DNA of 64,000 bases from Rhizophagus irregularis. Lineage: Eukaryota. Location: contig NC_089431.1 in the NCBI RefSeq assembly GCF_026210795.1, forward strand, positions 186,001 through 250,000. The letters run 5' to 3'. Positions 4,638-36,598 of this stretch are shown here, in pieces. A program made the translations under genes and the position numbers. The notes under the pieces are model-generated. The model saw only the letters and a list, made by a program, of their open reading frames with translations. It was not told where the DNA came from and did no database searches. Within the stretch, counting starts at the first letter, position 1; every line of letters begins with the position of its first letter.

Positions 4638-6581
4638 TTTCTCTGCATATTAATGTAACTGTAGTACAAATTGTGTATATTTATAATCGCGACCAACCCG
4701 TTCGTTTTAACTTTTTTTTTACGTATTATAATTCTAAAATTTAGTTTGATTAAATTACTTGCATATATAAAATTATAATTCTTATAATTCAAACTAATTA
4801 GTATGGAAAATAAGCCAAAGAATTTATGGAAACATGTTGATGGTGATGAATACCAGGTATTATAAATTCACATTTATTATTAATAATTATAGTAATATTG
4901 AATTTTTATAGTTAAAATTGTAATAATTTTTTGTACATTAAAAGCTTCATGTTATGATTTCTACTATTGATTCAACTACTGAATCAGAAGATACAGATGA
5001 AAGAATAGTTTATATGGAAGATTTAGAAAAAAGAAAACAAGTATATGGAATATGTGGAGAATGTAATGAACCTGGTACAGGAGAAAAATGGTGTCAACCT
5101 TGTAATGCTAAAAGATTTAAAGATAACTTTAAAAATTGGACTAGTGGAAATAAAGATATTGATGAGTTTATACAACAATCACAACTTAATGCTGTATATT
5201 GGAATAAATGTCTTGAATGGATACCATATGAAAAATTTCAAGATATTACTTATATTGCAGAAGGTGGTTTTGGTAAAATATATTCAGCTGAATTGCCTGA
5301 AGGATGTATTGATTCTTGGGATATTGAAAATCAAAAATGGTATAGAAAATGTAGTGATAGTGGTAAATATGCATTAAAAAGTTTAAATAATTCTTCTAAT
5401 ATAAGTTCAGATTTTTTAAATGAGGTAATTTGAATTCAGTTTATTTAAATTTAATATTCTTTACATCTATTTATTAGCAACATTTCTTTTTATCAATTAG
5501 ATTAAATCTCATCTTCAGATTCATCTTTTTGATGTTATTACATGTTATGGAATAACTCAAGATCCAAAGACTAAAGAGTGCATGATGGTTTTAAATTACT
5601 TTATTAATGGAAATTTGAGAAATTATTTGAGTAAATCTGAAAAATATATAGATTATGAATTAAAAATTAATAAATTACAGCAAATTGCAAGAGGACTTTC
5701 AGATATTCATATTGCTGGGAAAATTCATAAAGATTTTCATTCAGGGAATTTATTGCATAGTGATTCCTTTATATATATAAGTGATTTAGGAATGTGTCAA
5801 CCAGCAAATAAGCAAACAGTTACTTTACTGAAACTTGCGAAATCGGGACTGTGTAGTAGATATGTAGCCGCTATATATATTATAAAAAAGTAGTAGGCGT
5901 ATCGCTATTTTATGTTTAACGTAGGGTATCCATATGGAGCGAATATAAAAATACTGTGAATAATTTCGAGAGTCCATGTAACAAATACAATGCAAAAATG
6001 TAGTTTATTTAATGTAAATATATTGCAAAAATGTAGTTTATTTAATGTAAATATATTGTTTATTTAAAGTAATATTACAGTTTACTCAAAGTTATAATAC
6101 AGCTTCATTGTATCAACTATCTAAATCTATATTAAATCTATTTTGTATCGATATTAATCTATACTAAAAAAAAGCTAAAAAAATCTTTTTTCTAAAGTTT
6201 CGAATTCCTTTTTTTGAAACTATACTTGGGATTTTGGTTTCCAAGCTGGAGCCAACTTCTCTACAAAAAAAAGGAAATAAATTAAAAAAAACCTCTTTCT
6301 ATAAAGTTTCGAATTCCTTTTTTTTCGAAACTTACCTATCTCATGCAAGCATCTAACTAAGAGTCAATTTCACCAAGATCCGTGTCTGAGCTGCCTAAAA
6401 AAAAAGGAAAAAAAGAAATTAGCAACCGTTTTTAAAAGACGAAATAAAGATGGAATAAGACAAAAAAATAATACTCCCACCAAAGTCCCTCGTCCAAAGA
6501 ATTTAAGAACCGTCTAAAAAAAAAAGAACAGTTAGAAAATGCTTGTCAAAATAAAAATCAAGAAAAAATTGCCAAACTCAC

Positions 6582-7167
6582 CGATCACGATAAACAAAAT
6601 TTTTCTCAGTAAAACTTAATTTCTTTGATAAAAAACACGAAGTAAATCGATTACTATTCCTTTGATATCTTCAATAATTTCATTTCGAGGATCCTTATTA
6701 ACACTAAATCTTCCGTATCTAGTAGCTTTTGAATCCAATGAGACACATACAGCTGCAATACTTGGCCTATTATCACCTCTTCCAGAATGGAAAACGTCAG
6801 CACCAAATATCACTGTCGGTTCTAAAGATACAAAATCAATTTGATCATTGGTTAATATTACATTTTGTCCACCTAATTTTGCGTTCACTTTCAAAAAGAT
6901 GTTTGAACAAATTTGATCGATTCCAATTTTTCTCGCTAATCGTTTGAGTAAAATACATTGAGTTGGAACACCCAATTGCGTGTCCCCAATCCTTTTAATT
7001 TCTCCATATATTGGACCCGTTGATCCCAAAATACATATAATGATATGTAGAAGATAATTTTTGTTAAACAAAGATTTGTGACAAGCAATATTCAACGCCA
7101 TAGTAATTTTGCCTTGAGGATTTGTATACATGACGTAAGGATCATTCGGGATGTCTAAAGACTCAGT
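6582..7167 (-). pseudogene. Argonaute fragment (MID and N-terminal part of PIWI)
   Basis: YGEIKRIGDTQLGVPTQC, NIFLKVNAKLGGQN, PTVIFGADVFH, PSIAAVCVSLD, EIIEDI are eukaryotic AGO MID/PIWI motifs. After the stop at 6616 the sequence continues as RKILF-YRD with a 1-nt frameshift. Bounded by an AG acceptor (7169-7168) and a GTGAGT donor (6581). Confidence 0.93.
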
Positions 7168-7999
7168 CTTTTAAAAAAAGAAAAAATAAAAATGTTAGTA
7201 TACGTTACGTTAAAGAAATATATAGAAATATAAACATTGTCCGATTTCTCACCAAAATCCCATGCGTTTGAAGAGTGAAACGAAAACAAAACTTAAAAAA
7301 GAAAGTTTAATAGTTTAGTACCAAACCAAAGACAACAAAAAAAACCAACAAACAATAGAAAAAACCCACCTTAATTTCCATAAAAGAGACATTGAAACAT
7401 AAAAAAGGAAATACCAAAACCTAAAAAGAAAGATAACACTGAAGGGGTCACCAAAACCTAAAAAGAAGCCAAATCTACAAAAAAAAAGAAAATCAAAAGT
7501 TAATGACGAATACGAAGAAATAAAATGGCAAATCTAAAAGAGAAAAATGAACCTTTAATAGAGTTCGTTAAAATAAAGTAATTTATGAAAAAAAATTACC
7601 TACCAGAAGAATCCCAATGTTAGAAACTGTTCGTTAAAGGAAACGGTGATGGATGCTTCACTGAAGGAAGGTAGTTCAGAGCTGATATGGAAGGTGCGGA
7701 ATTACAGAGACTAATAAAGAAATGCAGAGCAATTGTTAAAAAAAAATCCCGAATGCCAGTTCCTAAAGGAAAAAAAAGGAACGTTAGTGACGTTCCTATA
7801 ACAAAAGGACCATATGGTTAACTTACCCTTTCACGAATTCAAGTCCAGGTGACGATTCCTAAAGTATTTCCGTAAAAAAATAATTTTTTTAATAATTAAA
7901 GACCGAACTTTAGTGGTCCAAAAAGAAACATTAAAGAGTTTCTTAATTAATAAACACATCCGCACACACCGCTCCTCATTTACCTCTATTTCTGATCAT

Positions 8000-9300
8000 C
8001 ACCGTTTCAAAAGAAGAGACGTTCCTAAAGAATAAGAATAAAGTGAGTAAAGAAAAAAATAAATAAAAAAAATGAAAGTAAACGAAAAATATACTAACCT
8101 CCCGTCTATCTTGCATTCTTAGAAATCCACTGAAACTGCCGTTCTGAAAGAAGAGACCGTTCCTAAAGAAATAAAAATAAGGTGAGTAAAGAAAAAAATA
8201 AATAAAAAAAAAAATGAAAGTAAACGAAAAATATACTAACCTTCCTGTCTATCTTGCATTCTTAGAAATCCACTGAAACTGCCATTCCGAAAGAAGAGAT
8301 CATTCCTAAAGAAATAAAAATAAGGTGAGTAAAGAAAAAAATAAACAAAAAAAAATGAAAATAAACGAAAAATATACTAACCTCCCATCTATCTTGCATT
8401 CTTAGAAATCCATCAAAACTGCTATTCCGAAAGAAGAGACCGTTCCTAAAGAAATAAAAATAAGGTGAGTAAAGAAAAAAATAAATAAAAAAAAATGAAA
8501 ATAAATGAAAAATATACTAACCTCCCGTCTATCTTGCATTCTTAGAAATCCACTGAAACTGCCATTCCGGAAGAAGAGATCATTCCTAAAGAAATAAAAA
8601 TAAGGTGAGTAAAGAAAAAAATAAATAAAAAAAAAATGAAAGTAAACGAAAAATATACTAACCTCCCATCTATCTTGCATTCTTAGAAATCCATCAAAAC
8701 TGCTATTTCGAAAGAAGAGACCGTTCCTAAAGAAATAAAAATAAGGTGAGTAAAGAAAAAAATAAATAAAAAAAAATGAAAATAAATGAAAAATATACTA
8801 ACCTCCCGTCTATCTTGCATTCTTAGAAATCCACTGAAACTGCCATTCCGGAAGAAGAGACCGTTCCTAAAGAAATAAAAATAAGGTGAGTAAAGAAAAA
8901 AATAAATAAATAAAAAATGAAAATAAACGAAAAATATACTAACCTTCCGTCTATCTTGCATTCTTAGAAATCCACTGAAACTGCCATTCCGAAAGAAGAG
9001 ACCGTTCCTAAAGAAATAAGAATAAAGTAAATAAAAAAAAGAAAAAATGAAAATCATAAAATAAAAAAAAAGAAAAAATATATATATATAACGAAAAAAT
9101 ATACTAACCTTCCCGTATCTCTTATATTCGTTCCAAAAGAGACAATTCCTAAAGAAATAAATAAAGTAAGCAAAAAAAAATGAAAAAAAAATGAAAAGAA
9201 AAAATGAAATATACTAACCTTCCAGCTTCCGCACCTCTTGCATTCTTAGAAGTCCAAATCACCGTTCTGAAAGAACCCGTTCGGTCTGTTCTTGAAGAAA
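8000..9300 (-). repeat. ~141-bp tandem repeat (about 7 copies plus degenerate ones); each unit is one ~64-nt exon-like block plus one GTTAGT...TTTAG intron-like block on the - strand
   Basis: Unit recurs at ~8097, 8239, 8380, 8520, 8661, 8801, 8942; reverse complement reads GGAG|GTTAGTATATTTTT...TTTCTTTAG|GAACGGTCTC. Confidence 0.85.
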
Positions 9301-9765
9301 CTAAAGAAAAAAAAATTAATTAAAAAAAAGATCAGATAATCAAATCTGATCATCCAATCATTTTTTTTCAAGGAAAAAATTTATTGAAGACCGAATGTTA
9401 AAGATAATGTGATCATCATGTGATTAGCCGCAATTACGTCAGGGTAATTTAATTAGATATTTTCAAAACTTGCAACCGTGAGAAGTATAAAAAAGTTTAT
9501 TTATTAAAATATATATATAGAAGCTTATTTATTAACATATATGGGTTTTATATATTAAAGTTTTAAATTTAAATTATTCGCCTAAATAAACTTAAACATA
9601 TAGACTTTTTCTTATATTAAGTTTAAAAATAAACTTTTATAAACTTTTGTTTCTTGATAATAAAATTAGTAATAAAAAAATAATTTTTTTAAATTTCGTA
9701 ACTAGTACAGTACTTCCAATTTTATAAAAAAAAACATTTTTAAATTATTATTTATTTTTTTTAAA

Positions 9766-10460
9766 ATGACAAGAGTACGAAAAGAACAAAAAACTACCAT
9801 GCAAAATGAAGCAGAAGTCACAAGTAAATATTTTTTATATAAAATTGCAATATAATATGATTATAATTTTTTATTTAGTACTTTTTAATTTAATTAGAAG
9901 GTCGTGAAAAAAATGGCGGTAGACGTGGACGAGGTCGTGGTCGTGGTCGTGATCATAGTAGTGATATACATCAACCAATTGAATCTTCTGTAAGTTCAAC
10001 CCAAGTGCTAAAGACTACTGTGGGTAATGTCTTCAGAGTTCAGACTTTTTTTTAAAAAAAATTAGTGATAATTTCTATTTTAGCAATTTTTTCTCAATTT
10101 CTGATTTGCATTTACTTTAATTGGTGATCGTATCCGGGGTAATAAAAAACAAGTGATTAAATGTGATACTCCGATTCAAGAATATGAAGCTGAAGCCGGT
10201 AATTAATTTTGAAATTTACCATTATTTTATTTTTGTAAATTTCAAATATTGATTTAATGGATCTAAACCAGACCTTAATGTCATTTCTATTTCTGATGAT
10301 GAATTAGGACCAGCATTTGATGATACACTCAATGATTTTAGCATTTCTGGGCCTTTCAAATTAGATTATAGTACAATTATGGATAATTCTGAAAAGATTT
10401 GTGATGATGATCATGAAATAGAAACAGAACGTGACATACGCCCATTTTATATATATTCTT
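9766..10460 (+). pseudogene. Degenerate multi-exon gene fragment with RG repeats and acidic tract, inside the TIR element
   Basis: ATG at 9766, GTAAAT donor at 9824, TTAG acceptor ~9897, then GGRRGRGRGRGRD; further short exon-like blocks (ISISDDELGPAFDD). Confidence 0.35.
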
Positions 10461-13189
10461 TAACCATGTACATTCTTAAAATTTGAAACAATTGTATTTT
10501 ATTCTTGAATGGGTTCCCACCTTGTTATGGTTGTGTCACCAGGGGCGCTATGTCAACGGAAACTTAGTACGTTGATCGCTTAAAAATCCGCGGCAATCCA
10601 ATCATAACAAGAGGAATTAATTTTTATATAAGATATTGTACTATTTGTGTATGTTATAATTAAATTACAATATTTTACAATTATACAATTAATAATTTAT
10701 TATTGATAAAAAAAATTATGTAATCTATTAAAATTTTAATTATTAATAATAAAATGCGTTACTTAATTTTTTTTTTTTTAAAAAAAAATAACTATTGTAC
10801 GATATCCAATAACGAGCATCTTATTATGGTTTGTATACAACTTATCGCTTCTATATAACAGATATGAAGTGAAATGACAGAATCTATAATTACATGTTTT
10901 TTAAAAATAAAAATAATTGTATTTTCAAAAATTAAAAACGTATTTTTCACAATTAAAAAACAAATAAAGTTTCATATTACCTCCATGTAGAAAATATAAA
11001 GTAGTGAGGTAGAAACTGGACAGTCTAGACGAAAAAAATGCCACTAGCGATCGACCATATAATCACGTGATAGTCACATGCTAGAAGCGTTAAAGTTGCT
11101 AAATCAGAGGTTTCAGCAAAGTAAGGAAGAAGGAATTTATGGAGTATTACCATATATGGCACCAGAAGTTTTACGTGGACATCAATATACAAAAGCAGCA
11201 GATATTTACTCATTTGGAATAATAATGAATGAGTTGCTTTCTGAAGAAATTCCTTATGGTGATATTTCTCATGATGAATTTTTAGCTGTTAAAATTTGTA
11301 AAGGACAGAGACCAAAAATTTTTGAAGATGTACCAAAATTACTTGCAGACTTGATTATAAGATGTTGGGATGCTGAAATAGAAAATAGACCAACTGCCAA
11401 AGAATTGTATCAGATATTAAAAAAATGGATGGATGAAACTTGTGATAGTGATGATAGTGATGATAGTGATGATGATGGTGGTGAAGATGGTGAAGATAAT
11501 GAAAATAATGAAGACAGTAAAAGTGATGAAAATAGTCAATATAGTGAAATTTGCTCTCAAATAAAAGTATGTAATGAAATTGGAAGAAAAAAATTTAAAA
11601 GTAGATCAAGCAAAGATAAACCCAAAAATATTCAAACACATTCACAAGCAATTTATACTAGTAGACTTTTAAATTTTAAAAATCTTCCAAAACCAGTAAA
11701 TTCTTCAGATTTATCATCATTTCAATTTAATTCAGGTAATTTAACATTTTTTTTGTTATGAAAACCATTTACATTATTAATTTTATTATTTTTTTTCCAA
11801 TAGATGCTAAGTATGCTATTCAATCAACATTGGCGAATCCAAGCAAGTATTTCTTTTAATTATCGTTACTATGATTATTTATAATTTCTAACGGTCAAAT
11901 ATTATTTTATTTACAGTTTCAGAATGTTTAGATGTTCAATTAAGCGAATTAGGTAAGTTGTTATTTATTTATAGCTTTATTAATATTTCCTATCTGATTT
12001 ATTTATTTATTTATTTTTATAGAACTGAATGAAATTTGTCAAGATGGTGAAAATAATATTGAAAGTTGAAGTCAATGGTTTAGTAATTGAAGAGCGCGTT
12101 CAGTTGGACGGTTGAAGTTAACTTTACTTTTATTTCTATTTTTATATTTTATACCCTGGTTTACTTTGTTTACATATGCAGTACATACATATTGATTGTA
12201 TTTATTTAGAAATTCCGTTTTTATTTAAAATAAACAACTTAAATTCTTTATATTTCAGTTATTTGATTTATTGCTTATTTATACAATATTACTACCTTCC
12301 TTTTCAAGTCTTTTATTAGTCACGCACATTACTCTTTGTTAAGAATCAATTAAACGTCGACTCAAAATTGATCGTTACTATCAATTTTTTTACAAAGAAA
12401 AAAAAATTTTTTTGATGCAAATGAATTATCAGAAAATGTTAATCTGAGCATTAGAAAATGTATGATGCTCAAAGAGGGAGGGAGTACGCAGATCCTAGTC
12501 CAGCCCCAGAATCATGTTATTTCTTTGTTCTCTCAGGCTTTTTACAAATTTCTATACTAATTGTTTTTTCTTGCTAACTACAAGATTCCATTTTCTACAA
12601 ATACGAAATAAACTATGTTTACAAAATCTCCACCAATATAAATCACTCCTACCCACACAGATTATACAGAAATTTTCGATCTTAGCTAATTTCCGCAAAA
12701 GAAGTTTCCCGAGATTGAATAATTTCGAATCTACGGCATAAATCGAAAGATTGGCAACTGATATAAAAAAAGTAATGTAATGTTACTGATTCACATTTAC
12801 CGTTACGTCTCATTTTCAGAATATTCAACCTGCCTTGATGTTTAAGAAATTCGACGCATAATTTTTTTATTACCAGTATGATACTGCGCAAACATTAAGA
12901 ATTCGGTGCTTATATTTTTTGATGTACTGCGTACTGTGCCGCTGCATGTGATGAATAATTTCACTGCGCCTATCATTATACCTATTATATACGTGATCAT
13001 TGTCTCACTCGTGTTGTAATCTACAAGATTAGTAAGATTAGTTATCTTCATTAACGGATTTTAAATTATGATGATTTGATTTCTCAAAATTCTTATTAAT
13101 CACAAAAAGTTTTTTAATTTCCAATATTATGCAGAGATGATTCACCCAATCTCTATTGTGATTTACAATTATGATCCGAGCAATTATAG

Positions 13190-13602: not shown

Positions 13603-14099
13603 ATATAGAAGCTACGTATATATTTGTTATATTTATTATCATTTTAAATCTAAGATAAAATAAAAGTAAAATTGTAAAACCTATTCATTTGAATGAAATT
13701 AAGCGATTATGGGTCACGAGACATTTCACATTACCTCAAATTTACTATTGTTTTTTCCCAATCTTCTTTAATCGACTAATTATTTCATAAACAGGTCTTA
13801 AAATAGATGTACATAGTTTGATTAACCCAAATTTGATATAAAGTTATAAACAAGAGGATTTTTATTTTTTTATTTTTATTTTTAAAATCCACGTGAACTA
13901 GACTACAGAAAGATAGACAAGAACAAAAGATAAAACAAAAGTCAAACGCTATCTAATACTAAGCTATAATCAAACCGCCCAAGGACGGCGCCACTCTGGT
14001 ATATAAAACGAAACAAGGGTGGGTCCCAATTACGACACCAATCCCGAAAAAAACCAAATAACAGGCTAAAGGACTAAGTTCTAGGTGGATTATGTGAGT

Positions 14100-17000
14100 C
14101 TAAAAAGGATTGAACTGGCGAAAACTGATCTAAATTAAACAAGAGACTATCTCTATATGACTCCCAAGTACCACTATGTAAAAAATTACAAGTCGTCCAT
14201 CTTATACAAGCGGACACGTCAATATTGACTAGTTGTTTAAAATAAGGAAGAACTTTGTTATGATAGTAACGAGTATATTGGTGGCGGCGTCGAAACGGAA
14301 CTACGAGAGGCGTTTCATCCGCTGGTAAAGGTGGTTGAGGGCGAGAGGGTGTTTTATTCTTTCGATAATTTTCTTCTTTTTGAGCGTGATGTTAAGGCTT
14401 TTTTCCCACTGTTTAAATGAGCGGGAGCGTGATGACCAAGTTAAGGTAGTTAATTCAGAAATAAAATCAGCTACAAATCCAATTAGGAAACGCGAACGTT
14501 CGCTTTGTTTACTGAAGTAGTTATCAAAAAATACTGTGAGATCTCGAGGGATCAAGTGATGTAGTAACAAAATCCACGGTTGTTCACGCGGAATACGGAT
14601 TGGAGTATTAGGATCAGCCTGCCGTGCTGAGTCTAGAATATCTGGAAGTAACTTGAACATATGTGAGTTGTTAATTCTTGATTCTATATCGAACGAGAAA
14701 CTACTGGTGTGTTCGACCTTAATAAGGTCGATTAATTTTTGTTTAAATTTTGTTAAAAGTATGTCGATGGCGCTTCGATGAGCAGGGCATAAGCCTATAT
14801 GTGAATTAGTGTCTTCGTCGAAAGAGCTTTCAGTACAATGGATTCGTCCAAAAGGGTAAAGATCTGGATAATTGCGTTGTAATATATTGCCGGTAGGGTA
14901 ATTGAAAGTAGATTTTTTAATTTTAGACGATTGGATATTTCATAGTTTCGATGATGTAGGTGTATCCGTTGGATTATAATTGATCCAATGTTTGGTATAA
15001 TACCAATCTATATCTCCATGTGTAATTTGATGATTAATAGGAGACAGCGAACTATTATTCACGGCCATATTAAAAATGCGCGACTGAATAGGCGTATTAG
15101 CCCATTTGCGAACATTATGATCAATAATATATAAATGGTTGTAGTTGAATAAAGCCAACGAACTTTGTTGAAAGAATTTGTGATTTATCAATATCAGGTC
15201 TACCGATAGTCGGCCTTCTTTAGCGAGAGCATCAGCTTGATCATTGCCTTTGATGTTACTATGTCCTTTAACTTTAACGAGATGTACCGTTAAGTAGTGA
15301 TGGGAAATTAACCAACTGATCAAATCCCAAATTAAGAAATTATTTTGTTTGAGCCTACGACGTGGACTAATAGTGGGTGAAGTAGTCTTTAATTAAAAAT
15401 ATCTATGCAGTTTTGAGAATCTGTATATATGTGGCAGGTAGCATTAAAGGGTAAAACTAATAAAATTGTTAAAATGGCTAAACTTTCACTCTTAAACGAG
15501 GAAGGAAAAAATATAGATGAACCATTAAAAGATAATTGAGGGATTAATGGGTTGGTTTGTAACCAACCAAAACCAGATTTACTGTTAATTGTACCTATAT
15601 CGGAGACGGAACCGTCTGAATAAAATTCAAAATTAGTAAAAGGTAAAAATTTTTTGGCTATATCAATAAGGGATAATTTGATAGAATCTATACATAAAAG
15701 GGCAGATTGAATGGGTAAAATTAATTGATTAATAATATCATCATTTACAGATGAAGGTGAATTAGCGGACAAGGACGTATGAGTAGGAGTGATAGTATTA
15801 ATATTATGTTGAGCTAAATATATACTATGTGCACTATGTCTAATAAAATGTAATGGTTTAGTACTGACGAAATATTTTTTTAAAAGAAGGTTTGCGTATT
15901 TTTTATGTTCTTGATTTGAGCGATGAAATATATTAAAAACTGATAAACGAATTGTACGAATAGATATTGAACATTTAATACGGACGTCTAGTAAAACTAA
16001 ACTATTATCATTTAAATGACAACCCGTACAAGGAATTAAAATTAAAGGTGATGACCGTAACGGTTGGGATGAGGAATCATTCACTAATAAGGAATTATTA
16101 ATAGGGATATAATGTTCCATGGTACTAATAGAACTATGTGTATCAGTATCTTGTACATATGTTTTTCCAATAACGCAATTTTGTATACTAGCGTTCCAAT
16201 GGTATGTCCATTCATTATGTTTTTTATGACTACCTGATGAGCGTACTGGAATATTTTGTAAACGCGTAGGAATGGAGTAATTATCAGTAAGTGGGTATGT
16301 TAACGTACGGTAATTACTTAAGGTGAAATCATTTTCTAGTAGTTTGAACCACTTTGGTTTAGGTCCTTTGAAGTTGTTGTTATTAAGTCTTTTAACTTCA
16401 TTCCAAGTTAAAAGGTAGTTGCCATCGGGCGAAACTAGTTGATCCAGATACATAATTCGTTTATTACGTAACGATTTATAATCATTTGACGATAAGTCTG
16501 GTAAATAATCCACTATGGGTGTATGTCCACCAATGATACCATAACTAACAGTGAGGTCTAGGTGAATTTGGTATTGTTCTAACAACGCTAGACTTCTTGA
16601 CAAATAGCTGGGTGTCGAAATTTTCCCTATATATTTATTGATATCTTGAGGTATACCCAGGTACCATAGTTCTTGTGTTAATATATCCAATTTTTGTATT
16701 GCTATCGGTCTTAAGGTGTCAGTATTAAATAAAGCCAACAACGAGTTAGTTTGTGACTTAACTAACAAATCCAATAAATTATCGATATGAGGAAACATAT
16801 TATTATAAATAATATTATCCGCCGTATTTAACGGTAGCGAAAAAAATTTTTTGAATAATTTTTTAAGTGGAACCACTAATTTTTGAGCCTGTGTATAATT
16901 TAAAATAGTATGTTGGAAAAGATATTCCAACTTAGGAAATATAACTCTATTAATGATATATATGGCGTGTGAATGTGTGATTTTTTTGTTTCTCATTGTA

Positions 17001-19568
17001 ATCACGTGAGCCATGATGATAGAACGTGCTTTGATTAAGGTTTGGTGATGTCTGTCTAAAGGATTGATATATAAACCTAGAATTCTTGTGCCCTTATATT
17101 TCGGGACGATTTCTACTTCCGTTTGTCGTCCATTGATCGTGAGTTGGATATTTCTGATGTTATCCGTTAATTTTTGATTCGTTAAAATCTTATATTTATC
17201 GATATTCACTTTGATTTTCGCCATGTCATAAAAGGAATGTGCAATGTCTAGTTTCAATTCAAGTTTTTCTAAAGACGGGCTAAACCAAGTGGTGTCGTCA
17301 AGGTAGCCTACTAATGATAACTCATAACTATGAGTTATATCTAAGTGTTTTTGGTATATGTTCTTAATTTTTTTTGTGTCACATTTATACGCTAGGTTTG
17401 ATAGTTTGTTAATGTGGCTGAATAGAGGGTCGTAATAGATATTCCATAGTAGCGGTGAAATAACTTCACCTTGATCTATACCTTGTAAGACCTTGTAAGG
17501 TGCTAAATTACCATTTGGTAGGATGATAGAATTATATCTATTAGAAAATAAATTGATGATAAAAGTTATGATTTTTGACGGAATTTTAATACGTTGTAGC
17601 GCTAGTCGTAATAGCGCTATATCTACTCTATCATAAGCTTTTGATAGGTCTTGAATTGCTATCAATATTGGGTTTTTGAATATTCTTGCATGTTCGATTA
17701 AATGTTGAATTTGAAAAAGTGGTTCTAAGCATGATTGACCTAGAACACCAGCTCTATTATTGAACTGTAAGATATTGTATTTTGCTAGAGTTTCATTTAA
17801 TCTTCGTGAAAAGACTGAAACCATCAGTTTTCTAGGAGTTTCTAAGAGTGTGATTGGACGAGTGTTAGAAAGATTACTATCCCAGTCGTGTGGTTTTGGT
17901 ATAGGGAATAGTAAAGCGTCACGCCATTTTGATGGTATTGTGTCTAAGTGAATACATAAATTAAAAATAAGTGTTAAAAGTTCGAGCACATCTGGATGAA
18001 GATGTTTCAAGTCTTCATAGGTAATTTGTGATGGACCAGGGGCCTTGTTTGAAGGGGAATCTTTAAGGATATGCATTACATCAGTAATCTCTATTTTCTG
18101 TTGGAGTAAGTTCCAGCAATTATTGTCTATGGAATTGTTACTGGGATCATATATATCACTCCACGGCATTGGTAAATCATTAAGAGAGTTATAAATTAAC
18201 GGGTTTTCATGTTTTCCTATATTTTGATAATGTTTGATGGCTTCTTTTTCTATAATTTTTGGATTATTAGTAAATATAGTTTGATCGTTATCGTCTTTAA
18301 AAATGAGCCGATCCAAAGTGATTCGTCTGGGTTTACGCTGTAATATGGAATTGATCATTCTTGTTTGATTGGTAGATAAATCAAAATTTCTTTGATTAAT
18401 GAAATGGTCAATTCTTTCTACTTTCCATTGTGATAATAGGTCGTCCCTTTTTTGTTTTAAATGATTATATAATTTGTAAATTTCACTTTTTTGTGCATAA
18501 AAAATTTCTTTTGTAATATAATGTCTTAAGATTATATCATGATCATTTGATTTGGCGATCTGGTTAATTCGATCACGAATGGTTGTCCAATTTTTAAAAT
18601 AAACATTCCAGATCTCATCTGGAATTAAAGATAAAAGTAGTGAATTGTCTTCTGGTTTTTCTAATTTATTTCTAATATACATGTGTTTAAGATTAAGATA
18701 TTGTTTGATTTTATATATAGAAATCACGTGATTATTAAGTTGTCGTATGTATAACGGGTATAGATGATTAAAAGTCTTGGAATGGACTTTTTTAGTCGGA
18801 ATTATTAAATTTTTGATATGCTGTATACTGTGTTCAAATATATTCCAAGCATGGTCTAAATCTTCTTGTGATGTAATATTTTCAATATCAATATATCGAA
18901 ATCGATTTTTAAAATATGACTTTGATTGAACTTCATAATCATCCCATAAATCTTCATTCATCATGGAGTAATTAGGTTTGTTTTTAATATCATTACAGTG
19001 GTGATTGTTAGATAATTTAGTTGGTTTGAATAGATCGTTTTGTAATAATGTAATGACAGCTTCGTGGTCGCTAGTAAAATGTGAAGGTGGTATTGTTTGT
19101 GTGAACGTGTGGATTGACCCGTTCAAAATGTTATTGTTTCCAAATATGTAATCTATTCTATGTGATATTCTTGTAATTTCTGGGGCGTGATTGATGGCGT
19201 GATATTTCGCCATGTCTTTAAAACCTTTCAATTTAGCGGTTTGAATTATATGATAATTTAGGTTTGTTTTTTCTTTAGGGTAACAATTAAGATCGCCCAT
19301 GATTATGTCATAATTCTTGTAATTATCATCAGAGCAGTTACGTGATCTAAGTAATTGGTCAATAAATTGATTACAATCTCTTTTGATAGGGTTGGTTTGT
19401 TTGTCTCTTCCTGCCGGTAAGTATAGACACATAATATTCAATGTGTGGTTTCGTTTGAATCCTAATTTTATATTTGGGACACGTCCTTTGTGAAATCTAA
19501 TTTCATGTACGTGTTGGTATAAAGTGCTAGTGAGCATAATCCCTACTCCAGATCCTTTGTTGTCACCA
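14100..19568 (-). pseudogene. LINE ORF2, main part: AP-endonuclease C-terminal half, reverse transcriptase, RNase H, C-terminal Cys/His region
   Basis: APE motifs GSGVGIM, MGDLN, RIDYIF, SDHEAV. RT motifs KAPGPS, RPITLLE, DLSKAYD, QGEVISPLLW, YLDD. RNase H motifs FYSDGS, YTDSQ, KVKGHS..GNDQADALAK. Frameshift near 15390, stop at 14940, further disruption in the last few hundred bases. Confidence 0.93.
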
Positions 19569-19682
19569 CACTGGTCGAAATCAAAAAAATCGGACATATG
19601 GAAAATCAGCTAAAAATCAGACCAAAATCGACTGACATTACAAATTGGCACATCTGATTGATGCCAATCGGACAATTTAATG

Positions 19683-20375: not shown

Positions 20376-23300
20376 TTATAATTGGTATTTTCTACTAATT
20401 GGATTTACGGCTAAATACTCTCTTGCATTTTGCCGGTTTGAGATTTGGTAACTTACTGGTACAAATCTACCTAAAATATGATGCACAGGTATTATACAAT
20501 CACGACTTATTGGATAAAATTCGGTATTCCACAACTCAACATTACAAATTTCATCACTGCTGAAATAGTATCGAATATTGGTTGAATTTGCGTGTTTATA
20601 CCAACGAACGTATGCTAGAAAATGTTCGACGGGACCATCTGGAAAGTCTACTACGTGAGTAAAATAATACTGAATTTGACCTGGGTAGGTGTCGACATCT
20701 TCATCATCCGTAATAAATTTCGCTAAGACGTACGAACTTTTTACATGTCTTAACGATAATGATGATCCAAAGACTTCTGAACCAATCCGACACCTTCCGA
20801 ATTGGTTAATTTTGACCCTAATTATTATATCGTTATCTAAACCTTCTACAAGAGGCCTCCAAAATCCAAATGATTCGTAAGTCACATTGTAATATTCGGC
20901 CATTAAATTTAACATTTCACTTGAAAGTAGTATATTATGAGATACCGGCTTAAGAAATTCACCTGGGAAGCCTTCTTTGCCAGAAATCTGTGAATCTTTA
21001 ATATTTTGTGAATTCAGCCAAAATCGATGCATCTCATCTGACGAAAATTCATCAGTAACTGAAAGGAACCCGATAGTACGCTGACTGTTTAGCAATTCAA
21101 GACCTTTTACTTCGATACCTGAACTTATGATATTTTCGATTTGTTTATCAAACATTAATCGACGCATAAGTTCAGACTCAATTTTCCTGTTGCTGTTTGG
21201 TAACGAACCTAAAAGTGCGAAATCAATAAATTATAAGCTAATATTGAAATCGTTAAAATCGTTAAAAAATCGTTAACGGATATTTACCTAAAATACCGTT
21301 CATACGTTCGAAAGAGAAACACCAGAACGCATATAATGGTCCATAATCAAATGAGCAATCACGCAAATGCAGAGAAAGATGAAGATTCGGTGTGATCTTA
21401 TCTCTGCCGTGGTGATTCTCAATGAGCTTGACTATTTCGATAAGACTTCTATGGGCTTCATCCACCAAATTAGATTCTAGAATCCGATTTACCAAAATCG
21501 AACAAACCCTGACAAAATGATTCAGGATTCTTCTATCTACGTCTGAAAGGTGTTCCCAAAGTGATACAGTTGAATAAATTGTAAAGAATATTCGCCACTG
21601 ATCGGCCGTAAAATTGGTGAATCCCTCTCCACTATGAATTTTTCCTGGAATTCGACCTAAATCGGATGGTATCTGAAACTCGTCCATCTTTTTCTGAATT
21701 TTGTTCAAAGAATTTGGTGTCAAAATACCCCCATCAATCCAAATTCGTTTTACTATCCACTTCGCAATGCCCAGAAATAAGCAATGCATTGGATCGACTG
21801 TAATAAATCTAATAGGGTCAAAATATGATAGACGCAACAATTCGGACCATCTAACGCCAGTTTCTTTGACGAAGCGCTTTCTAGCAGCGTCTGAGTTGCA
21901 TCTTCGCCAACCTAGTGCGTTTTGCCGGTACTCATTTGAATCTCGAGCAGAATACCCTACATCATCCATTCCAGCAAAATTATGCTGCCCATTTTCATAA
22001 TTTGCTTTTTTCTCACACCTGTGACATGAAACTAAGGCAGAAACATGACCGCAAATTTTTCTTGCGGCGGGAATGTCACATGATACTAAGATTAAAGCGC
22101 CACGAACTCTCTTTCCATTTTCGCATTCATAAGTACGATTTAGTGTTAACCCAGCCCAGAGTGTTTCCAATTCGTTAACTATTGGTGCTAAATAGTGGTT
22201 CACTTTATGTAGGCTGACCTTCTTTGGCCCAGGTAAAATGCCGAGAGTCAATAAATTTTCACGTCTAAATCGGATATCGCGTGGCAAATTGCATATAGCG
22301 GCGTATATGACACCGATACTATAAATGGTACTATCATATGGCTGAAACCAATCAAGATTCAGCATCAAGCCAAGATGAGAATCGGCCACTTCGCTTCTGA
22401 AAAAATTTGGCGAATCTTCATTGTCCGATTCTTTAAAATTCTTCCACACTTGCCCATCATATATATCGGTCAAAATATTATCAAAATTCGACCGATTAGC
22501 CCAATGTCGGAGAGAATTTTCAAACCCAGGCCGACAAAACATAGTGGCAAGTTGTTGATTGATTCCAGCAAACGGATACATTAAATTAGGTCGTATTATT
22601 GTTTGATTTGTCGATGCGCTAATTTTTTCAGACAATGCCGTATTGCAAAGACGTGATCTGCAAACTGAAGAATTGGGAAATTCTATGTGTTGACATTTCA
22701 TTATAGCAGGATTGTCCTCTTGTTTGAAATCTACCACTTCCTCTTTTTTATACAATTTGTGACATTTCGGACAAGGTACAAAACTATGAAATTGGTCATT
22801 TAATCCAAGCTTCTTTCTTGTTAAGTAAAGCGAATCTGGGAAATCATTAAAATTGTCACTACTGAACTCACACAGGGCCAATTTCATAAATTTTATTAGA
22901 GTCTCAGTAGCTGTCTCTGCGATATTGAATCTTGTTCGAAAGTTCATTATCCAAAGTAAAATCCATAAAAATCGATCATAATTCGATTCTAAATATGGTG
23001 GGTTTTGAAATGGTTCATAACTAGGTGGTGAATAGTCTTCAAAAATTTCAGAAATTCCAGAAATTGGATCATTATCTGATTCACTGCCTATAGACAATGT
23101 ATCACTGTAGATATCTTCCTCTGTAGTATATTCGGATGATGATGAATCTTCTGGATCTTCTGAAATTTCCGGACGATTTGTATACTTTCTTGCACGTTGT
23201 CGAGGTAAGAAGTTAAATTCGACATCTTGATGTTCATCATCAACATCATCTTGATTACTGTTATCTGATTTTTCCGATTCTTGTCTAATAGATTCGTCAA

Positions 23301-23633
23301 TCATTCGTCCAGCTGAAGCGGGTATTGATGTTTCACCTATTTCAAGTTGACGAACTTGAGACGAAATTGTACCTTGCGAATCTTGGTATTCTTGATGTCT
23401 AGAATCGTGAATTTCTTTTGTGCGAGAATCCACCAAGTTGCCATCACAATCAGGACAATTACAAACTACTAGTTTTCTTTTATTACTTGTTGGTCTAGCA
23501 GAAGATACTATTTCTTCGTTTATTATACCAGAAATTGATCTATTTCTTTACGAGTAGAAGATGGCTGATTTGAAGGTGATTCTTCATCATCAAGATCGTC
23601 AAGTATACTAGAGACTGACCTTTTTCTGCTCAT
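20376..23633 (-). pseudogene. CACTA transposase (Transposase_21/Tnp2-like), two exons, frameshift near the 5' end
   Basis: Motifs DIYDGQVW, LNLDWFQP, AICNLP, ILPGP, CDIPAARK, DPMHCLFLG, PNLHLSLHL, DYGPLYAFWCFSFERMNGILG. Intron 21209-21287 (GTAAAT...TTTTAG) joins ILG-SLPNSNRKIE. The ATG at 23633 needs one frameshift near 23550 to reach CNCPDC..VDSRT. Confidence 0.9.
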
Positions 23634-25030: not shown

Positions 25031-25053
25031 TTTTAAATTTATAAATAGGACGA

Positions 25054-26162
25054 TGTAAACGGTCGAATATCAAGCACGGAAAGATGATAAAATTCAACCA
25101 CCAAATGTAATTATTAAATATTAAGAACGAACAAATTAATCGTGGATTGGCGTAGATGGATAAATAATTAGCCGAAAAGGATAAACATTTAGGAGGAGTA
25201 ATGATCTACATGATGTAATATTTATTGAATGATTGACAAGGAACCAATAGGATAAATAGAGTCGATCAATTGCGGCTTAGCAATCTTTAACAATAAGAAC
25301 GATAAGAAAGAATAATTATAAGCCACAAAAGATAGATTATAAGCAAAACACATAAAGCGAATTAAAAGAACATATAAAATAATGACAGAAAGATTAAAGA
25401 ACACAAAGTAATGTAAAAGATAATATAAAAAGATAGTATAAAGATGGAACGTAAAAGATAATATATTAAAAAGAACATATATAAAAAGATAGCATATTAA
25501 AAGATAGCATATTAAAAGATAGCGTATTTAAAATATAGATAGTATATTAGAAAGATAGTTCAAAGATAATATGTAAAAAGAACATAAAAGATAGTATATA
25601 GATAGAATAGAAAGTAGCATAAAAATTGTATATATAGAGAGCGGAATTCAAGGTAATTCCTTAGTTCTCATCCACAGAACTCAATAAAAATATAAGTTTT
25701 ATTTTTTAATTATTTGTTAGTAAAGTTTAATGTTAATTAAAGGTAATAGGTTCGCCCTAAACTTTAATTAATGTTTGCTTAATTAATTTTAATTGAATAA
25801 ATGGAAAGTTTAAGATGAATTAAATATACACTTCTGGAAAGTAATAATTCGTAGCGAGAGCTATCGAAGTTTGAAATTAAAGGTAAAAGTGGATATAATT
25901 TGGGAAAAATTTAGAGAAGTTAATTTTATTTTATATCGTTCGACGTTTTATATTACTAACGCTATTTATTTTGTAAACCAAGAATGTTGTATATGTTGTT
26001 GTATATTGTTCGTTGATTATATTGTTTGTTAATTATGTTGTTGATTAATTGTTCGCTCGTTTAATTGTTTGTTCGTTCGTTTATTCGTTCGTTCGACCAT
26101 GGGAATGCCCGTTCGATGTGGCAACTCTGTAATTTGATGACAGAGGGAATTGGGGGATCTCA
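25054..26162 (+). repeat. 5' LTR
   Basis: TGTAAACGGTCG...GGGGATCTCA; near-identical to 35431-36539. Confidence 0.97.
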
Positions 26163-26164
26163 TA

Positions 26165-26177
26165 TGGTGCATGCTCG
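26165..26177 (+). promoter_or_regulatory. Primer-binding site, possibly for tRNA-Gly
   Basis: TGGTGCATGCTCG lies 2 nt after the 5' LTR; TGGTGCATG is complementary to a ...CAUGCACCA tRNA 3' end. tRNA identity is inference. Confidence 0.6.
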
Positions 26178-27795
26178 CAAGAAAGGAAATGATCATCATC
26201 ACATGATTATTATTATAATGAATATGAAAATTTAATTTCGTTAGTAAGTCACTGATAGGTATTATTAATCAATATTTTATTTTTAGAATTTATTTTTAGA
26301 TTTCAGGTTTTGACGAGTTCAAAAGGAACCAATAAATCAACAAGGATTTAATCGAGTTAAAAACCTGAAAAGGTGAAAGATTGGAGTTTGTTGTTGTGCA
26401 AGTAATCACTTAATCGATAGAAAGCACAAGAATATTTCTTTCGGGAATAAAGTACCTGAGAAATTTCATAAGGAGATGGGGAAGTGAAAGATGAATTTTG
26501 AAATAAAGATTAATAATGGGAGAACACCAATGTATTATCTGGGGTTCATCTGTGTGGTATGGGTTACCTCTGAGTTTGAATTTTGGATAAATGCTCGAGA
26601 TTGGAAAATTTTTATTCTTCGACATTAAAGATTATAACGTATGGGTTACGTCAAATCTGGATACCCAGCTCAATAATGCGCAAATTGCTTTGGGGACGGG
26701 GAACGAAAATTGTAAAGACACCTACTATCAAGAAATATTGAATGGATAAAATAGGACAAACCTGTAAACTATCATGCTTTTACCCAATGGGAAAAAGATA
26801 GTGATAAGCCCAGTATAGGTCCACCAATTTGAGGAAAGATAAGTTGGTTTAGATGAGTTTTATGGATAGCTGATGACTTTTGAAACTGGATTTTGGAAGG
26901 TTAGATTCACCCGTTAAGAGACAAGTCGGCCAATGAAGGAGGAAAAATGGATACGTTGTATTGTTACAGGTCCTAGGCTACATTTCAGATGAAGGTTCCT
27001 GGTGTAGTATCCTAGTTCACGCTCTCATTACAATGTTCCGTTAAAAGAAGATAAAATAGAAGGATATTTACACATTAACGAGCCGTATAATGAACATTAC
27101 GCGCAGTATTTAATAATAGAGTAAAATCCGAAAAGAAGGACGTTGATTTAAAAGAAGGACATTTATTTAAAAGAAGAACATTTATTTGAAAAAGAATATT
27201 TATCTGAAAAGGAACATTTATTTGAAAAGAAGGACATTTATCTGAAAAGAACGACATTTTGCGTAATATAGATTAATTTACATAACATAGAATATTTAGT
27301 AAGAAGGATTTATGTGGATGATAAGAAAGATTGAAGATTCGCAAACTTTAAAAGTTATGAAAATTTTGGAGTTTGTGATATGTGAAATTATGAATCTCGG
27401 TGATGGAAGATAAATTTTAGGATGTGATATGTGTAATTATGAATCACGGTGATAGGAGATAAAATTTAGAATGTGATATGTGAGATTATGGATCTTGGTG
27501 ACAAAAGATAAACTTTGTGGCGCAGTAAAAACCTCCGCAGTCTGAGGAGATCATGGACTTAGAATAATTTTTGAAATTTTGAGGCGCAGCAAAAATTAAT
27601 AATAGAATATGGCGTAGCGAATACATAAAACTGAAAGATGGAATCTAAAGATTGAAAGAAGCAATCTATTTAAAGATAAAAGAATGTTTGGAAGATCAAA
27701 AATAGAAATGATAAGAGTGAAATATATATATATAGAGAGAGGAATCCGATTGAGATTCTGGATGGATATTTATAGCAATTTAACTAAAGCATACA

Positions 27796-30700: not shown

Positions 30701-31437
30701 GTCTAGAGAAAAGAAGGAATGCGAGAATAAATATGATGGACGAATATGATGATCAAGAAGAATATGATTATGATGGATATGAATATGGGGAACCACAATA
30801 CGGTGAAATGTATTATACACAAGGTCATTACGATGATTATGAAGATAGGGAATTAAATTACCATAATGAATTGTACGCGAAAGATAACTCAGTAAAAACA
30901 AGAAGACAAACAAGAAGGACGAATCCAGTAGTGGGATATAAAAATAATGATGAAGAAGGAAATTTACAAGAAGAATTAAGAGAAGCGGGAAATAGAATGG
31001 ATGATAGAGAAATACTAAGTGGAACAACAACACCAAGATATACGCCCGAAAGGACAGAACAAAATAATGTATACAAAGATAGTCAAAATTGGGATAATCC
31101 AATAGGACCAGAAGATTATAATTATGGTCGTCGACCCATGACAAAAGATGGAAGATTTTATAGACCAATGTTCACAAAAGAAGGCAAAGCATTTTACCCT
31201 GGAATGCGGCAAGATGAATTTGGAAATTGGGTTAGAACAAAGCCACCAGGGACAGGAAAGCCCAGAGAATATGGACCGAGATTAACTGATGGAATACCAC
31301 CTTACAACATTGTGGGAGACGTGAAAAATTGTAGAGCGAATATAACATTTGGACAATTAACAAATGAGAATACTAAGTATCACAAGCAATTGAGAGAAGG
31401 AACATATAGACCAAGAAGTATAAACGAGAAAAATTGA
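27796..31437 (+). pseudogene. gag: Gag with ~640-aa N-terminal extension; one premature TGA at 30160-30162
   Basis: Capsid-like motifs from ~29716 (EDVNDWVRQFE, LRGAASQWY, I*QGKNENVEEY); zinc knuckle CYTCGRVGHYSGEC at 30661-30702; frame stays open after the TGA, which is probably a mutated CGA. Confidence 0.88.
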
Positions 31438-31950
31438 CTACACTCGGTGGGAACTATGAAAAATGAGGAAAAAAGAACTACAGCAATGAGAACGGAATTA
31501 GAAGTTGAAGATCAATTAGTGAATGTAATAATAGATACTGGAGCAGCAGTAAGTGTGATAACAGATAAATTAAGAAGAAGATTGAATATACCTATATTTG
31601 GAAAAAGTAAATTTAGATGTACAATAGCAAATGGGCAAAAGATAGCAGCATTAGGAAAGGCAAATATAACTTTAAGATACAAAGATGAATTAGAGATACT
31701 GAAAGAAGTTGAAGTAATCGATTCAGAAGAAGAGGATCTAATTTTGGGAAATGACATATGGAAGTTGTATAATGCAAAAATAAATTTTGAAGATCATACC
31801 TTAAGAATAGAAGAACAGGGAGAAATAATAACGATTCCAGTAGGATACGAAAGGGAAGTAGCATATGAAAGTGAGGAGAGTGAGGACGATGAAGAATATG
31901 AAAGTAACGATGAAGGAGAAGTATTCAAAATGCACCAGAATTTTAAATAG
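31438..31950 (+). CDS. Retroviral-type aspartic protease, same frame as Gag
   Basis: IIDTGAAVSVI catalytic motif and DLILGND; directly follows the Gag TGA in frame. Confidence 0.9.
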   Translation, partial: LHSVGTMKNEEKRTTAMRTELEVEDQLVNVIIDTGAAVSVITDKLRRRLNIPIFGKSKFRCTIANGQKIAALGKANITLRYKDELEILKEVEVIDSEEEDLILGNDIWKLYNAKINFEDHTLRIEEQGEIITIPVGYEREVAYESEESEDDEEYESNDEGEVFKMHQNFK

Positions 31951-31985
31951 AGAGTCTTGGCTCTGAAGAGAGAGAGACGGAAAAG

Positions 31986-34067: not shown

Positions 34068-34127
34068 AAATATAGAACACATAGCGAAAATAACAAATTT
34101 AGAAGTAGAATCAATTAGGGAAATATT

Positions 34128-35345: not shown

Positions 35346-35416
35346 TTCGATTAAAATTATTATGGATAAGACACGAGTTCGATTCTATTAAAGTTATTTG
35401 TGAGGTCACAAATAGC

Positions 35417-35430
35417 GAAGAGGGGGATAA
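35417..35430 (+). promoter_or_regulatory. Polypurine tract
   Basis: GAAGAGGGGGATAA immediately before the 3' LTR. Confidence 0.85.
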
Positions 35431-36539: not shown

Positions 36540-36598
36540 ACGATATGACGATATTGAACCCGCTTCGATTTTTTAAACGAATATTGAGTGAATATAAA

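What the first reader, a model, noticed from the sequence alone, without database searches (positions are those of the whole stretch)
5823..11121. TIR element carrying a captured Argonaute MID-PIWI fragment has knocked out a kinase
Seen: a 5299-bp element with 12-bp TIRs and a TA duplication splits a kinase exon precisely. It holds a ~586-nt AGO piece (6582-7167, - strand) with GADV, the EII glutamate-finger region and a frameshifted YRD, but no PAZ and no PIWI C-terminus. The piece is bounded by AG and GT splice sites. Known: Pack-type elements capture host gene fragments, and AM fungi have expanded AGO families. Inference: a mobile AGO fragment could inflate AGO counts, or could generate TE-derived small RNAs that target the host's own AGO mRNAs, acting as an anti-silencing decoy.
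Basis: partly seen in the sequence, partly recalled or inferred. Interest (0 to 1): 0.78.

Follow-up and report, generated by a model that had tools for sequence, protein, structure and literature searches.

The report
Transposon carrying a spliced Argonaute fragment
In a mycorrhizal fungus, a 5.3-kb insertion that is likely a transposon has split a kinase gene and carries a broken, multi-copy piece of the host's gene-silencing gene Argonaute that is spliced into RNA; this likely explains some of the fungus's puzzling "PIWI-only" genes, and whether it dampens silencing is untested.

Summary
The insertion 5823-11121 has 12-bp inverted ends (11/12 match) and TA on both sides; removing it restores an open kinase frame. 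The AGO piece is 89% identical to one full-length Rhizophagus irregularis Argonaute. It is a family, not a one-off: 24 of 40 short related proteins carry this element's own non-AGO leader, five loci lie on five contigs of one accession series, and at 8 of 26 loci the element's second gene has a neighbouring accession. RNA contigs from two studies splice the AGO exon to the element's micro-exons. The piece lacks PAZ, most of MID and two catalytic residues, and its copies show no protein-level selection. So it inflates AGO counts and probably accounts for some published "PIWI-only peptides". The anti-silencing idea has a Drosophila precedent but no support here: a published small-RNA table lists neither the likely copies nor the parent. 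Superfamily unresolved; not a Pack-MULE. Verdict: real Pack-type Argonaute capture in a fungus, most likely a transcribed passenger.

The parts
4803..5822 (+). 5' half of a tyrosine-kinase-like host gene (three exons), cut at the insertion
   Evidence: ORFs 4942-5433 and 5501-5893; frame continues into 11124 onward once the element is removed
5821..5822 (+). left copy of the TA target duplication
   Evidence: sequence
5823..11121 (.). 5299-bp insertion, inferred non-autonomous TIR DNA transposon; no transposase ORF found
5823..5834 (+). left 12-bp terminal inverted repeat
   Evidence: 11 of 12 match to the right end
6092..9310 (-). element's multi-exon spliced transcript (17 modelled exons; outer limits approximate); strand inferred from splice signals
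   Evidence: AG/GT edges; RNA contigs of runs X15 and X16 cover exons and skip introns
6092..6513 (-). three downstream non-AGO exons (6481-6513, 6336-6394, 6092-6260); source of the shared C-terminal tail of many short PIWI models
   Evidence: X16 record 6092-6260
6582..7167 (-). captured Argonaute exon: parent residues about 475-664 (end of MID, first half of PIWI); stop at 6616-6618, 1-nt deletion before YRD, one codon missing
   Evidence: X15 contigs begin or end at 6582 and 7167 with 0-1 differences
7253..7762 (-). three upstream non-AGO exons (7253-7291, 7370-7474, 7604-7762); give the shared leader peptide of the short PIWI models and an in-frame ATG for a 200-aa ORF
8010..9082 (-). tandem array of 7.6 units of 140 bp, each a 64-nt exon plus an intron
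   Evidence: RNA pieces of 63-64 nt fit the minus-strand exons within 1-3 nt
9766..10486 (+). divergent element gene, truncated (about 145 aa) form of a 400-460 aa orphan protein whose missing C-terminal part is weakly homeodomain-like
11110..11121 (-). right 12-bp terminal inverted repeat
   Evidence: a related end followed by TA in L003
11122..11123 (+). right copy of the TA target duplication
   Evidence: sequence
11124..11740 (+). 3' half of the kinase gene (this exon; further small exons follow)
   Evidence: Pfam PK_Tyr_Ser-Thr positions 168-257, E 6e-18

Best explanation
The 5.3-kb insertion is likely a non-autonomous cut-and-paste transposon that captured part of one host Argonaute gene once, has been copied to several loci, and splices the piece into its own transcript as a likely functionless passenger. 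Steps: (1) shown: it sits between two TA dinucleotides inside a kinase exon and breaks that gene; (2) inferred: an ancestor took up DNA of the R. irregularis AGO represented by P0042/P0074 (parent residues about 475 to at least 753), with one shared 5' breakpoint; (3) inferred from gene models: the unit of AGO piece, micro-exon leader and divergent orphan gene was copied to 5 or more loci per genome, and sub-lineages lost 3' parts, the window's copy ending at YRD; (4) shown for the family, not for this locus: the piece is spliced into the element's minus-strand transcript; (5) inferred: its coding sequence decays neutrally, so the annotated PIWI-only proteins are transposon cargo and not RNAi factors; (6) inferred: movement depends on an unidentified TA-targeting transposase in trans.
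For: Junctions and restored frame; CpG step at both ends. One parent at 89% identity, with orthologues at 83, 81 and 74%. 24 of 40 short proteins at 70% identity or more to the parent carry the element's non-AGO leader; 8 more start at the first Met inside the exon. Five GBC/GET accessions on five contigs of different length, and five CAB44 accessions likewise. The divergent gene lies 1-8 accession numbers from the PIWI model at 8 of 26 accession-defined loci. Window plus 15 copies fall on one branch (96/91) nested among R. irregularis parent alleles, together with one short-read parent model. Spliced RNA contigs in 2 of 2 RNA runs laid, from two studies. Changes in copies hit 16 of 55 conserved and 25 of 82 variable sites; in orthologues 5 of 55 and 33 of 82; Fisher p=0.016 on distinct changes; 4 silent and 11 replacing among the 15 listed DNA variants in the exon. 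A related right end followed by TA and another flank in L003.
Against: At 18 of 26 loci no neighbouring divergent gene was found (only 10 of 13 clusters were opened and only proteins over 133 aa searched). No transposase partner was identified. An ATG in frame with the AGO exon is kept in most models, by two different routes, and likely copies are expressed at 31-78 FPKM against 6-22 for the parent (link by length only), which a passenger does not require. The selection test is on proteins, uses gene models, and the DNA variants are the 40 best-supported rows of about 400. RNA contigs cannot show strand or locus of origin.
Confidence: 0.72

Rival explanations
1. RNA-level anti-silencing or camouflage: element transcripts are turned into small RNAs that also match the parental AGO and lower it, or the likeness to a needed host gene tempers silencing of the element; the capture then helps the element spread.
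For: Precedent: Drosophila telomeric LINEs captured piwi, aub and nxf2 pieces in 8 of 9 capture events, with piRNAs on the host gene when identity is about 90% (PMC13534243); maize capture cross-talk (bioRxiv 10.1101/777037 abstract). Here the cargo is a silencing gene, 89% identical in protein, transcribed, and the parent is among the weaker expressed AGOs in spores, 6 FPKM.
Against: None of JGI ids 1479276, 1489847, 1848686, 1883614 or the parent 1668119 occurs in the table of 2131 small-RNA loci, while 3 of 4 highly expressed full AGOs tested do (threshold 10 reads per million, 0 mismatches). The piece is in sense orientation in a spliced transcript, so antisense RNA would need an RdRP. No faster change of the parent in the captured region: 3 changes in 279 sites against 3 in 476 (little power). 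One capture only, in a genome with 40 AGO-like genes, so an AGO can be caught by chance; about 25 full AGOs would buffer loss of one.
Confidence: 0.16
2. The copies encode functional small PIWI-domain peptides (a decoy or a new peptide class, as PMC6399891 proposed for its expressed piwi-only genes).
For: A 200-aa ORF with an in-frame ATG exists in the modelled transcript; the 5'-phosphate-pocket motifs and the first two catalytic positions are kept (residue roles recalled from human AGO2); high mRNA levels of the likely copies.
Against: No protein-level constraint; stops, frameshifts and different 3' ends among copies; half domains only; 22 ATGs upstream of the exon and three exon junctions after the stop; all 10 AGO proteins in a published spore proteome are 814 aa or longer.
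Confidence: 0.05
3. The AGO piece is an ordinary pseudogene spread by segmental duplication or by another element (for example a MULE), and the 12-bp ends are incidental.
For: The TIR is short and imperfect, and such pairs are common by chance. One gene model joins the divergent gene to a full MULE transposase five accessions from a PIWI model (GBC44097), and PMC8647823 reports MULEs next to AGO genes.
Against: The ends coincide with the kinase break to the base, with a 2-bp duplication only; a MULE fusion was seen in 1 of the divergent-gene models read; the L003 end is also followed by TA.
Confidence: 0.07

Closest known systems
Drosophila telomeric retrotransposons carrying piwi, aub or nxf2 fragments (PMC13534243: abstract, passages and first part of the gene-capture section read; PMC7785250: search listing only)
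   Same: A transposon carries a fragment of a host silencing gene, there too of Argonaute-family genes, at high identity.
   Different: Those are LINEs with 140-235-bp pieces, repeated independent captures, piRNAs on the host gene and faster host evolution. Here: a TIR DNA element in a fungus, a 570-nt or longer piece spliced as an exon, one capture, no small-RNA or acceleration signal found.
Pack-MULEs and other Pack-type elements (maize capture conflict, bioRxiv 10.1101/777037: abstract only; general features recalled)
   Same: Non-autonomous TIR element with a captured host fragment spliced into a chimeric transcript.
   Different: 2-bp TA duplication and 12-bp TIR, not the long TIRs and 8-11-bp duplication of MULEs (recalled); fungal host.
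MULE-linked AGO genes of R. irregularis (PMC8647823: section 7, passages, supplement table S4 searched; figure 4B not visible)
   Same: Proposes transposon-driven multiplication of AGO genes in this species, by analogy with Pack-MULEs.
   Different: Based on proximity to MULEs, with no element ends, capture breakpoint or cargo transcript in the text I read; whether its five MULE-adjacent AGOs include these copies cannot be told without the figure.
The seven piwi-only AGO-like genes of R. irregularis (PMC6399891: section 5, passages, supplementary files 2 and 4)
   Same: Short expressed piwi-only models with no R. clarus counterpart; two listed lengths (182, 150) equal P0101 and P0073 plus one, the same offset as for the parent (839 against 838).
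   Different: That paper suggested a new class of functional peptides; the present evidence makes at least two of them likely transposon cargo. The id link is by length only.
Fungal TA-duplicating DNA transposons: PHISTA, ESTA, Plavaka (PMC12730594: sections 14 and 16, passages) and Tc1/mariner (recalled)
   Same: 2-bp or TA target duplication; some carry accessory genes.
   Different: Termini here are CT..AG, not TGT..ACA, CATCA..TGATG or CA..TG; no transposase is present to place it.

Membership tests
Non-autonomous TIR DNA transposon with captured gene fragment (Pack-type) | terminal inverted repeats at the insertion edges | tested here: met
   11 of 12 bases, flush with the kinase break
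Non-autonomous TIR DNA transposon with captured gene fragment (Pack-type) | target site duplication | tested here: met
   TA on both sides, one TA in the restored frame; TA also after the related end in L003
Non-autonomous TIR DNA transposon with captured gene fragment (Pack-type) | internal fragment of an identifiable host gene | tested here: met
   89% to P0042, residues about 475-664
Non-autonomous TIR DNA transposon with captured gene fragment (Pack-type) | internal unit present at several loci | tested here: met
   shared leader in 24 of 40 short proteins; paired genes at 8 of 26 loci
Non-autonomous TIR DNA transposon with captured gene fragment (Pack-type) | same termini and duplication at the other loci of the genome | not testable with these tools
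   no genome held
Pack-MULE | long TIRs and 8-11-bp duplication (recalled) | tested here: not met
   12-bp TIR, similarity ends there; 2-bp duplication
Plavaka / EnSpm (CMCT) | termini TGT..ACA, CATCA..TGATG or CAC..GTG | tested here: not met
   termini CT..AG against PMC12730594
PHIS group (PHISTA) or Tc1/mariner | TA duplication | tested here: met
   PHISTA definition; Tc1/mariner recalled
PHIS group (PHISTA) or Tc1/mariner | diagnostic DDE transposase in an autonomous partner | not testable with these tools
   no transposase ORF in the element; no genome to search
PHIS group (PHISTA) or Tc1/mariner | accessory helix-turn-helix DNA-binding gene (PHIS-like) | tested here: inconclusive
   full-length relative P0117: best match homeo-prospero Z 7.8, rmsd 3.6, 131 aligned, then homeodomains at Z about 4; weak for a helical model
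Argonaute protein | N, PAZ, complete MID and PIWI domains | tested here: not met
   only Piwi 1-142 of 302 against six domains in the parent
Argonaute protein | catalytic D-E-D-H tetrad (recalled) | tested here: not met
   GADV and the glutamate region in frame, YRDG and the C-terminal His motif absent
Argonaute protein | purifying selection on the coding sequence | tested here: not met
   conserved and variable sites hit equally, 16/55 and 25/82
TART-type anti-silencing capture | captured piece comes from a silencing-pathway gene | tested here: met
TART-type anti-silencing capture | element-derived antisense small RNAs that map to the host gene | tested here: inconclusive
   absent from a published locus table, but ids are linked by length and no raw small-RNA reads were laid
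TART-type anti-silencing capture | [quoted passage not shown] | tested here: inconclusive
   3 of 279 against 3 of 476 sites, protein level only

The most novel reading that the evidence does not exclude
A fungal DNA transposon has captured and amplified a piece of a slicer-competent host Argonaute and out-transcribes the parent gene, so that small RNAs made against the element also strike the host's silencing machinery: a counter-defence convergent with Drosophila telomeric retrotransposons, in another kingdom and another class of element.
Probability: 0.16. Interest if true: 0.85.

Novelty: new variant of a known kind. Interest (0 to 1): 0.56.

Why it matters
The Argonaute expansion of arbuscular mycorrhizal fungi is a much-cited oddity, and its short PIWI-only members have been proposed as a new peptide class. 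This locus gives element ends, a parent gene, a breakpoint and a spliced transcript that explain a set of them as transposon cargo, so AGO counts and expression values need correcting, and short-read models of the parent appear contaminated by copy sequence. It also provides a defined test system in a fungus for whether capturing a silencing gene helps a transposon. I found no paper describing such a capture in fungi in 8 full-text searches; subscription journals are mostly not covered.

Tried and rejected
No own genome, so no direct copy count. No second copy of the element in the window. TIR pattern scan: metagenomes 3 hits, of which L001 and L002 (57% and 45% GC, no alignment to the window, not followed by TA) are chance and dropped; viral contigs 0. 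Contig depths (X11: about 245 for unique kinase pieces, 730-850 for three element pieces; X5: 167 against 393) hint at a few identical copies but are no copy number. Empty allele: one X16 RNA contig runs from 5822 into sequence matching the right flank at 29 of 30 shown letters, but the kinase family is very large, so it may be a paralogue. A plus-strand reading of the 140-bp units as exons was rejected because RNA pieces fit the minus-strand exons. Helentron: rejected because the inverted repeats are flush with both ends (criteria recalled). CpG richness as a sign of escape from silencing: rejected, other elements in the window have 0.7-1.14. Divergent gene: no Pfam family in the full-length relatives or, apart from one hAT dimerisation hit, above cut-off in 34 of 149 new representatives scanned; Foldseek no match at E 0.001; Atlas hits are unnamed basidiomycete clusters at 0.95 and DUF6698/DUF6532 at 0.89-0.90, leads only. 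GBC accessions of the copies were not found in the supplements of PMC8647823 (7 of 8 files searched). Three look-ups of earlier findings returned nothing. Tree rows: 16 copies and 13 full-length or orthologous rows over parent residues 475-625; shorter copies were left out.
Full report
Observation. The insertion is real. TA stands at 5821-5822 and 11122-11123, the first and last 12 bases of 5823-11121 are inverted repeats at 11 of 12 positions, and removing the element with one TA leaves a single open kinase frame. The 3' half matches Pfam PK_Tyr_Ser-Thr 168-257. An 11/12 match at a boundary fixed beforehand by the kinase break has a chance near 1e-5, although 234 such TA-flanked pairs occur somewhere in the window, so the repeat counts only together with the break. 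CpG observed/expected jumps from 0.00 and 0.08 in the kinase halves to 1.15 inside. The AGO piece, 6582-7167 on the minus strand, is 586 nt between AG and GT and covers Pfam Piwi 1-142 of 302, human AGO2 511-655 by sequence. A stop at 6616-6618 comes before the 1-nt deletion that shifts YRD.

Anatomy. The element holds two divergent genes and no transposase ORF. On the minus strand runs a chain of small exons: all 17 that I modelled by hand follow AG, and 15 of 16 internal ends are followed by GT, the last after a one-base shift. Among them is a tandem array of 7.6 units of 140 bp, each a 64-nt exon with an intron. The AGO piece is one exon of this chain. On the plus strand, 9766-10486 encodes a truncated form of a 400-460 aa orphan protein from a family of 197 clusters at 50% identity. 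Its full-length form folds with a confident helical C-terminal part whose best match is the homeo-prospero domain at Z 7.8, weak for a helical model; a DNA-binding accessory role is a lead only, and the window's copy lacks that part.

Parent and copies. The best full-length relatives are R. irregularis proteins at 89% identity, with orthologues in R. clarus (83%), Glomus cerebriforme (81%) and Funneliformis (74%); the parent has all six AGO domains. Among near-length hits, the named ones at 77% identity or more are R. irregularis models or metagenome calls. Of 40 proteins under 400 aa with at least 70% identity to the parent, 24 carry a non-AGO leader that translates from this element's exons at 7253-7291 and 7370-7474, and many share a tail from 6336-6513; 8 more begin at the first Met inside the exon; 3 that extend upstream into AGO sequence are fragments of orthologues. 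All leader-bearing models switch to AGO sequence at the same point, near parent residue 475, while 3' ends vary from about 529 to 753, which points to one capture of a longer piece and later losses (inference). Five GBC/GET accessions lie on five contigs of different length, and five CAB44 accessions likewise. At 8 of 26 accession-defined loci the divergent gene is 1-8 accession numbers away; the 18 misses are uninformative because only 10 of 13 clusters were opened and only proteins over 133 aa were searched, and several assemblies are of one strain. In a tree, the window and 15 copies share a 96/91 branch nested among R. irregularis parent alleles; P0081, a 683-aa short-read model, falls inside it, and P0082, P0077 and P0078 also carry copy-type residues, which I read as assembly chimeras, gene conversion not excluded.

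Recurrence of the ends. No genome is held. A degenerate end pattern gave 3 metagenome hits; only L003 aligns (78% over 97 nt to the right end) and it is followed by TA and a different flank. This shows a related element elsewhere, not the same ends at the other AGO-bearing loci.

Transcription. Of 24 listed runs, 20 hold part of the stretch; I laid 4 on 4700-9700. In RNA run X15 one contig starts at 6582 with 0 differences over 262 nt and 61 further letters, and another joins 7080-7167 to 7370-7475 with 39 letters between, the length of the micro-exon. In X16, from another study, one 949-nt contig holds 6592-7170, 7368-7474 and 7604-7761, with 12 differences in the AGO part, so a sibling copy. 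Contigs give neither strand nor locus; near-identical siblings exist (P0002, P0010, P0101). One X16 contig runs from 5822 into sequence matching the right flank at 29 of 30 letters: the uninterrupted form exists, as allele or paralogue. In PMC6399891 (supplementary file 2) piwi-only genes of listed length 182, 150 and 165 have 71/78, 53/44 and 31/34 FPKM in spores/roots against 6/22 for the parent, id 1668119 (P0075); the first two lengths fit P0101 and P0073, a link by length only, and reads of several copies may be pooled.

Function of the piece. As protein it is unlikely to work. It keeps the phosphate-pocket motifs and the first two catalytic positions but lacks PAZ, most of the Pfam MID region, YRDG and the final His (residue roles recalled). 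Changes in 24 copies plus the window hit 16 of 55 conserved and 25 of 82 variable sites, whereas three orthologues hit 5 of 55 and 33 of 82 (p=0.016 on distinct changes); 11 of 15 listed DNA variants replace a residue. The modelled transcript has 22 ATGs before the exon and three junctions after the stop. All 10 AGO proteins in a published spore proteome are 814 aa or longer (PMC8647823 table S4). As RNA it could act on the parent in principle, since identity is high, but the likely copies and the parent are absent from 2131 published small-RNA loci while 3 of 4 highly expressed full AGOs tested are present, and the parent shows no faster change in the captured region (3 of 279 against 3 of 476 sites, little power). 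I therefore favour a transcribed passenger (0.72) over RNA-level anti-silencing (0.16), functional peptides (0.05) and non-TIR spread (0.07).

Comparison. It works like a Pack-type element but fails the Pack-MULE test (2-bp duplication, 12-bp TIR; MULE features recalled) and the termini of Plavaka and EnSpm (PMC12730594); TA fits PHISTA, ESTA or Tc1/mariner, which cannot be decided without a transposase. One model fuses the divergent gene to a MULE transposase near a PIWI model, which may overlap with the MULE-adjacent AGOs of PMC8647823 (figure not visible). The closest functional precedent is the repeated capture of piwi, aub and nxf2 by Drosophila telomeric LINEs (PMC13534243). Eight full-text searches turned up no report of an Argonaute fragment inside a fungal transposon or of this origin for the piwi-only genes; the library lacks most subscription journals.

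Verdict. Observation confirmed; interpretation partly supported. A new variant of a known kind: an amplified, spliced Argonaute capture by a TA-duplicating fungal element that gives a concrete origin for part of a known annotation puzzle and makes the anti-silencing question testable with existing small-RNA and methylation data. Interest 0.56.

Noticed in passing
window 31947-34067 (+), inside an LTR element of about 25053-36539: A Gypsy-type element with LTRs 99.4% identical over 1110 nt has, after RT and RNase H, a C-terminal P-loop domain resembling thymidylate kinase (Pfam E 3e-4, residues 503-664, below the curated cut-off) in the same open frame; a nucleotide kinase fused to pol would be unusual.
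   Followed up: partly
window 8010-9082: Tandem amplification of a whole exon-plus-intron unit (140 bp, 64-nt exon, alternating two types); the reverse complement also mimics splice signals, but RNA uses the minus-strand exons.
   Followed up: partly
proteins P0081, P0082, P0077, P0078: Short-read models of the parent AGO carry residues typical of the transposon copies, unlike models on long contigs: likely misassembly, possibly gene conversion.
   Followed up: partly
protein P0106 (GBC44097): Gene model joining the element's divergent gene to a complete FAR1-MULE transposase, five accessions from a PIWI-piece model: probably a MULE in or next to one copy.
   Followed up: partly
L003:192-1060: The flank of the related element end shows the same pattern of many tiny minus-strand exons and A-rich introns as this element, suggesting a wider class of such transcripts (by eye).
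   Followed up: no
window 14074-19609, 20376-23547, 40606-43461, 43373-45865, 60915-62646: Other elements: LINE with RT, EnSpm-type Transposase_21 with long subterminal arrays, hAT-like element (DUF659) with inverted ends, two further LINE-like pieces.
   Followed up: no
window 50841-52349 (-): A second kinase of the same family, uninterrupted at the matching position; both kinases are CpG-poor relative to the transposons.
   Followed up: partly
window about 56660-57600: MITE-like element with long inverted arms made of short repeats.
   Followed up: no
window 36518-37289 (+): ORFs built of four 147-bp repeats just after the LTR element, no Pfam match.
   Followed up: no
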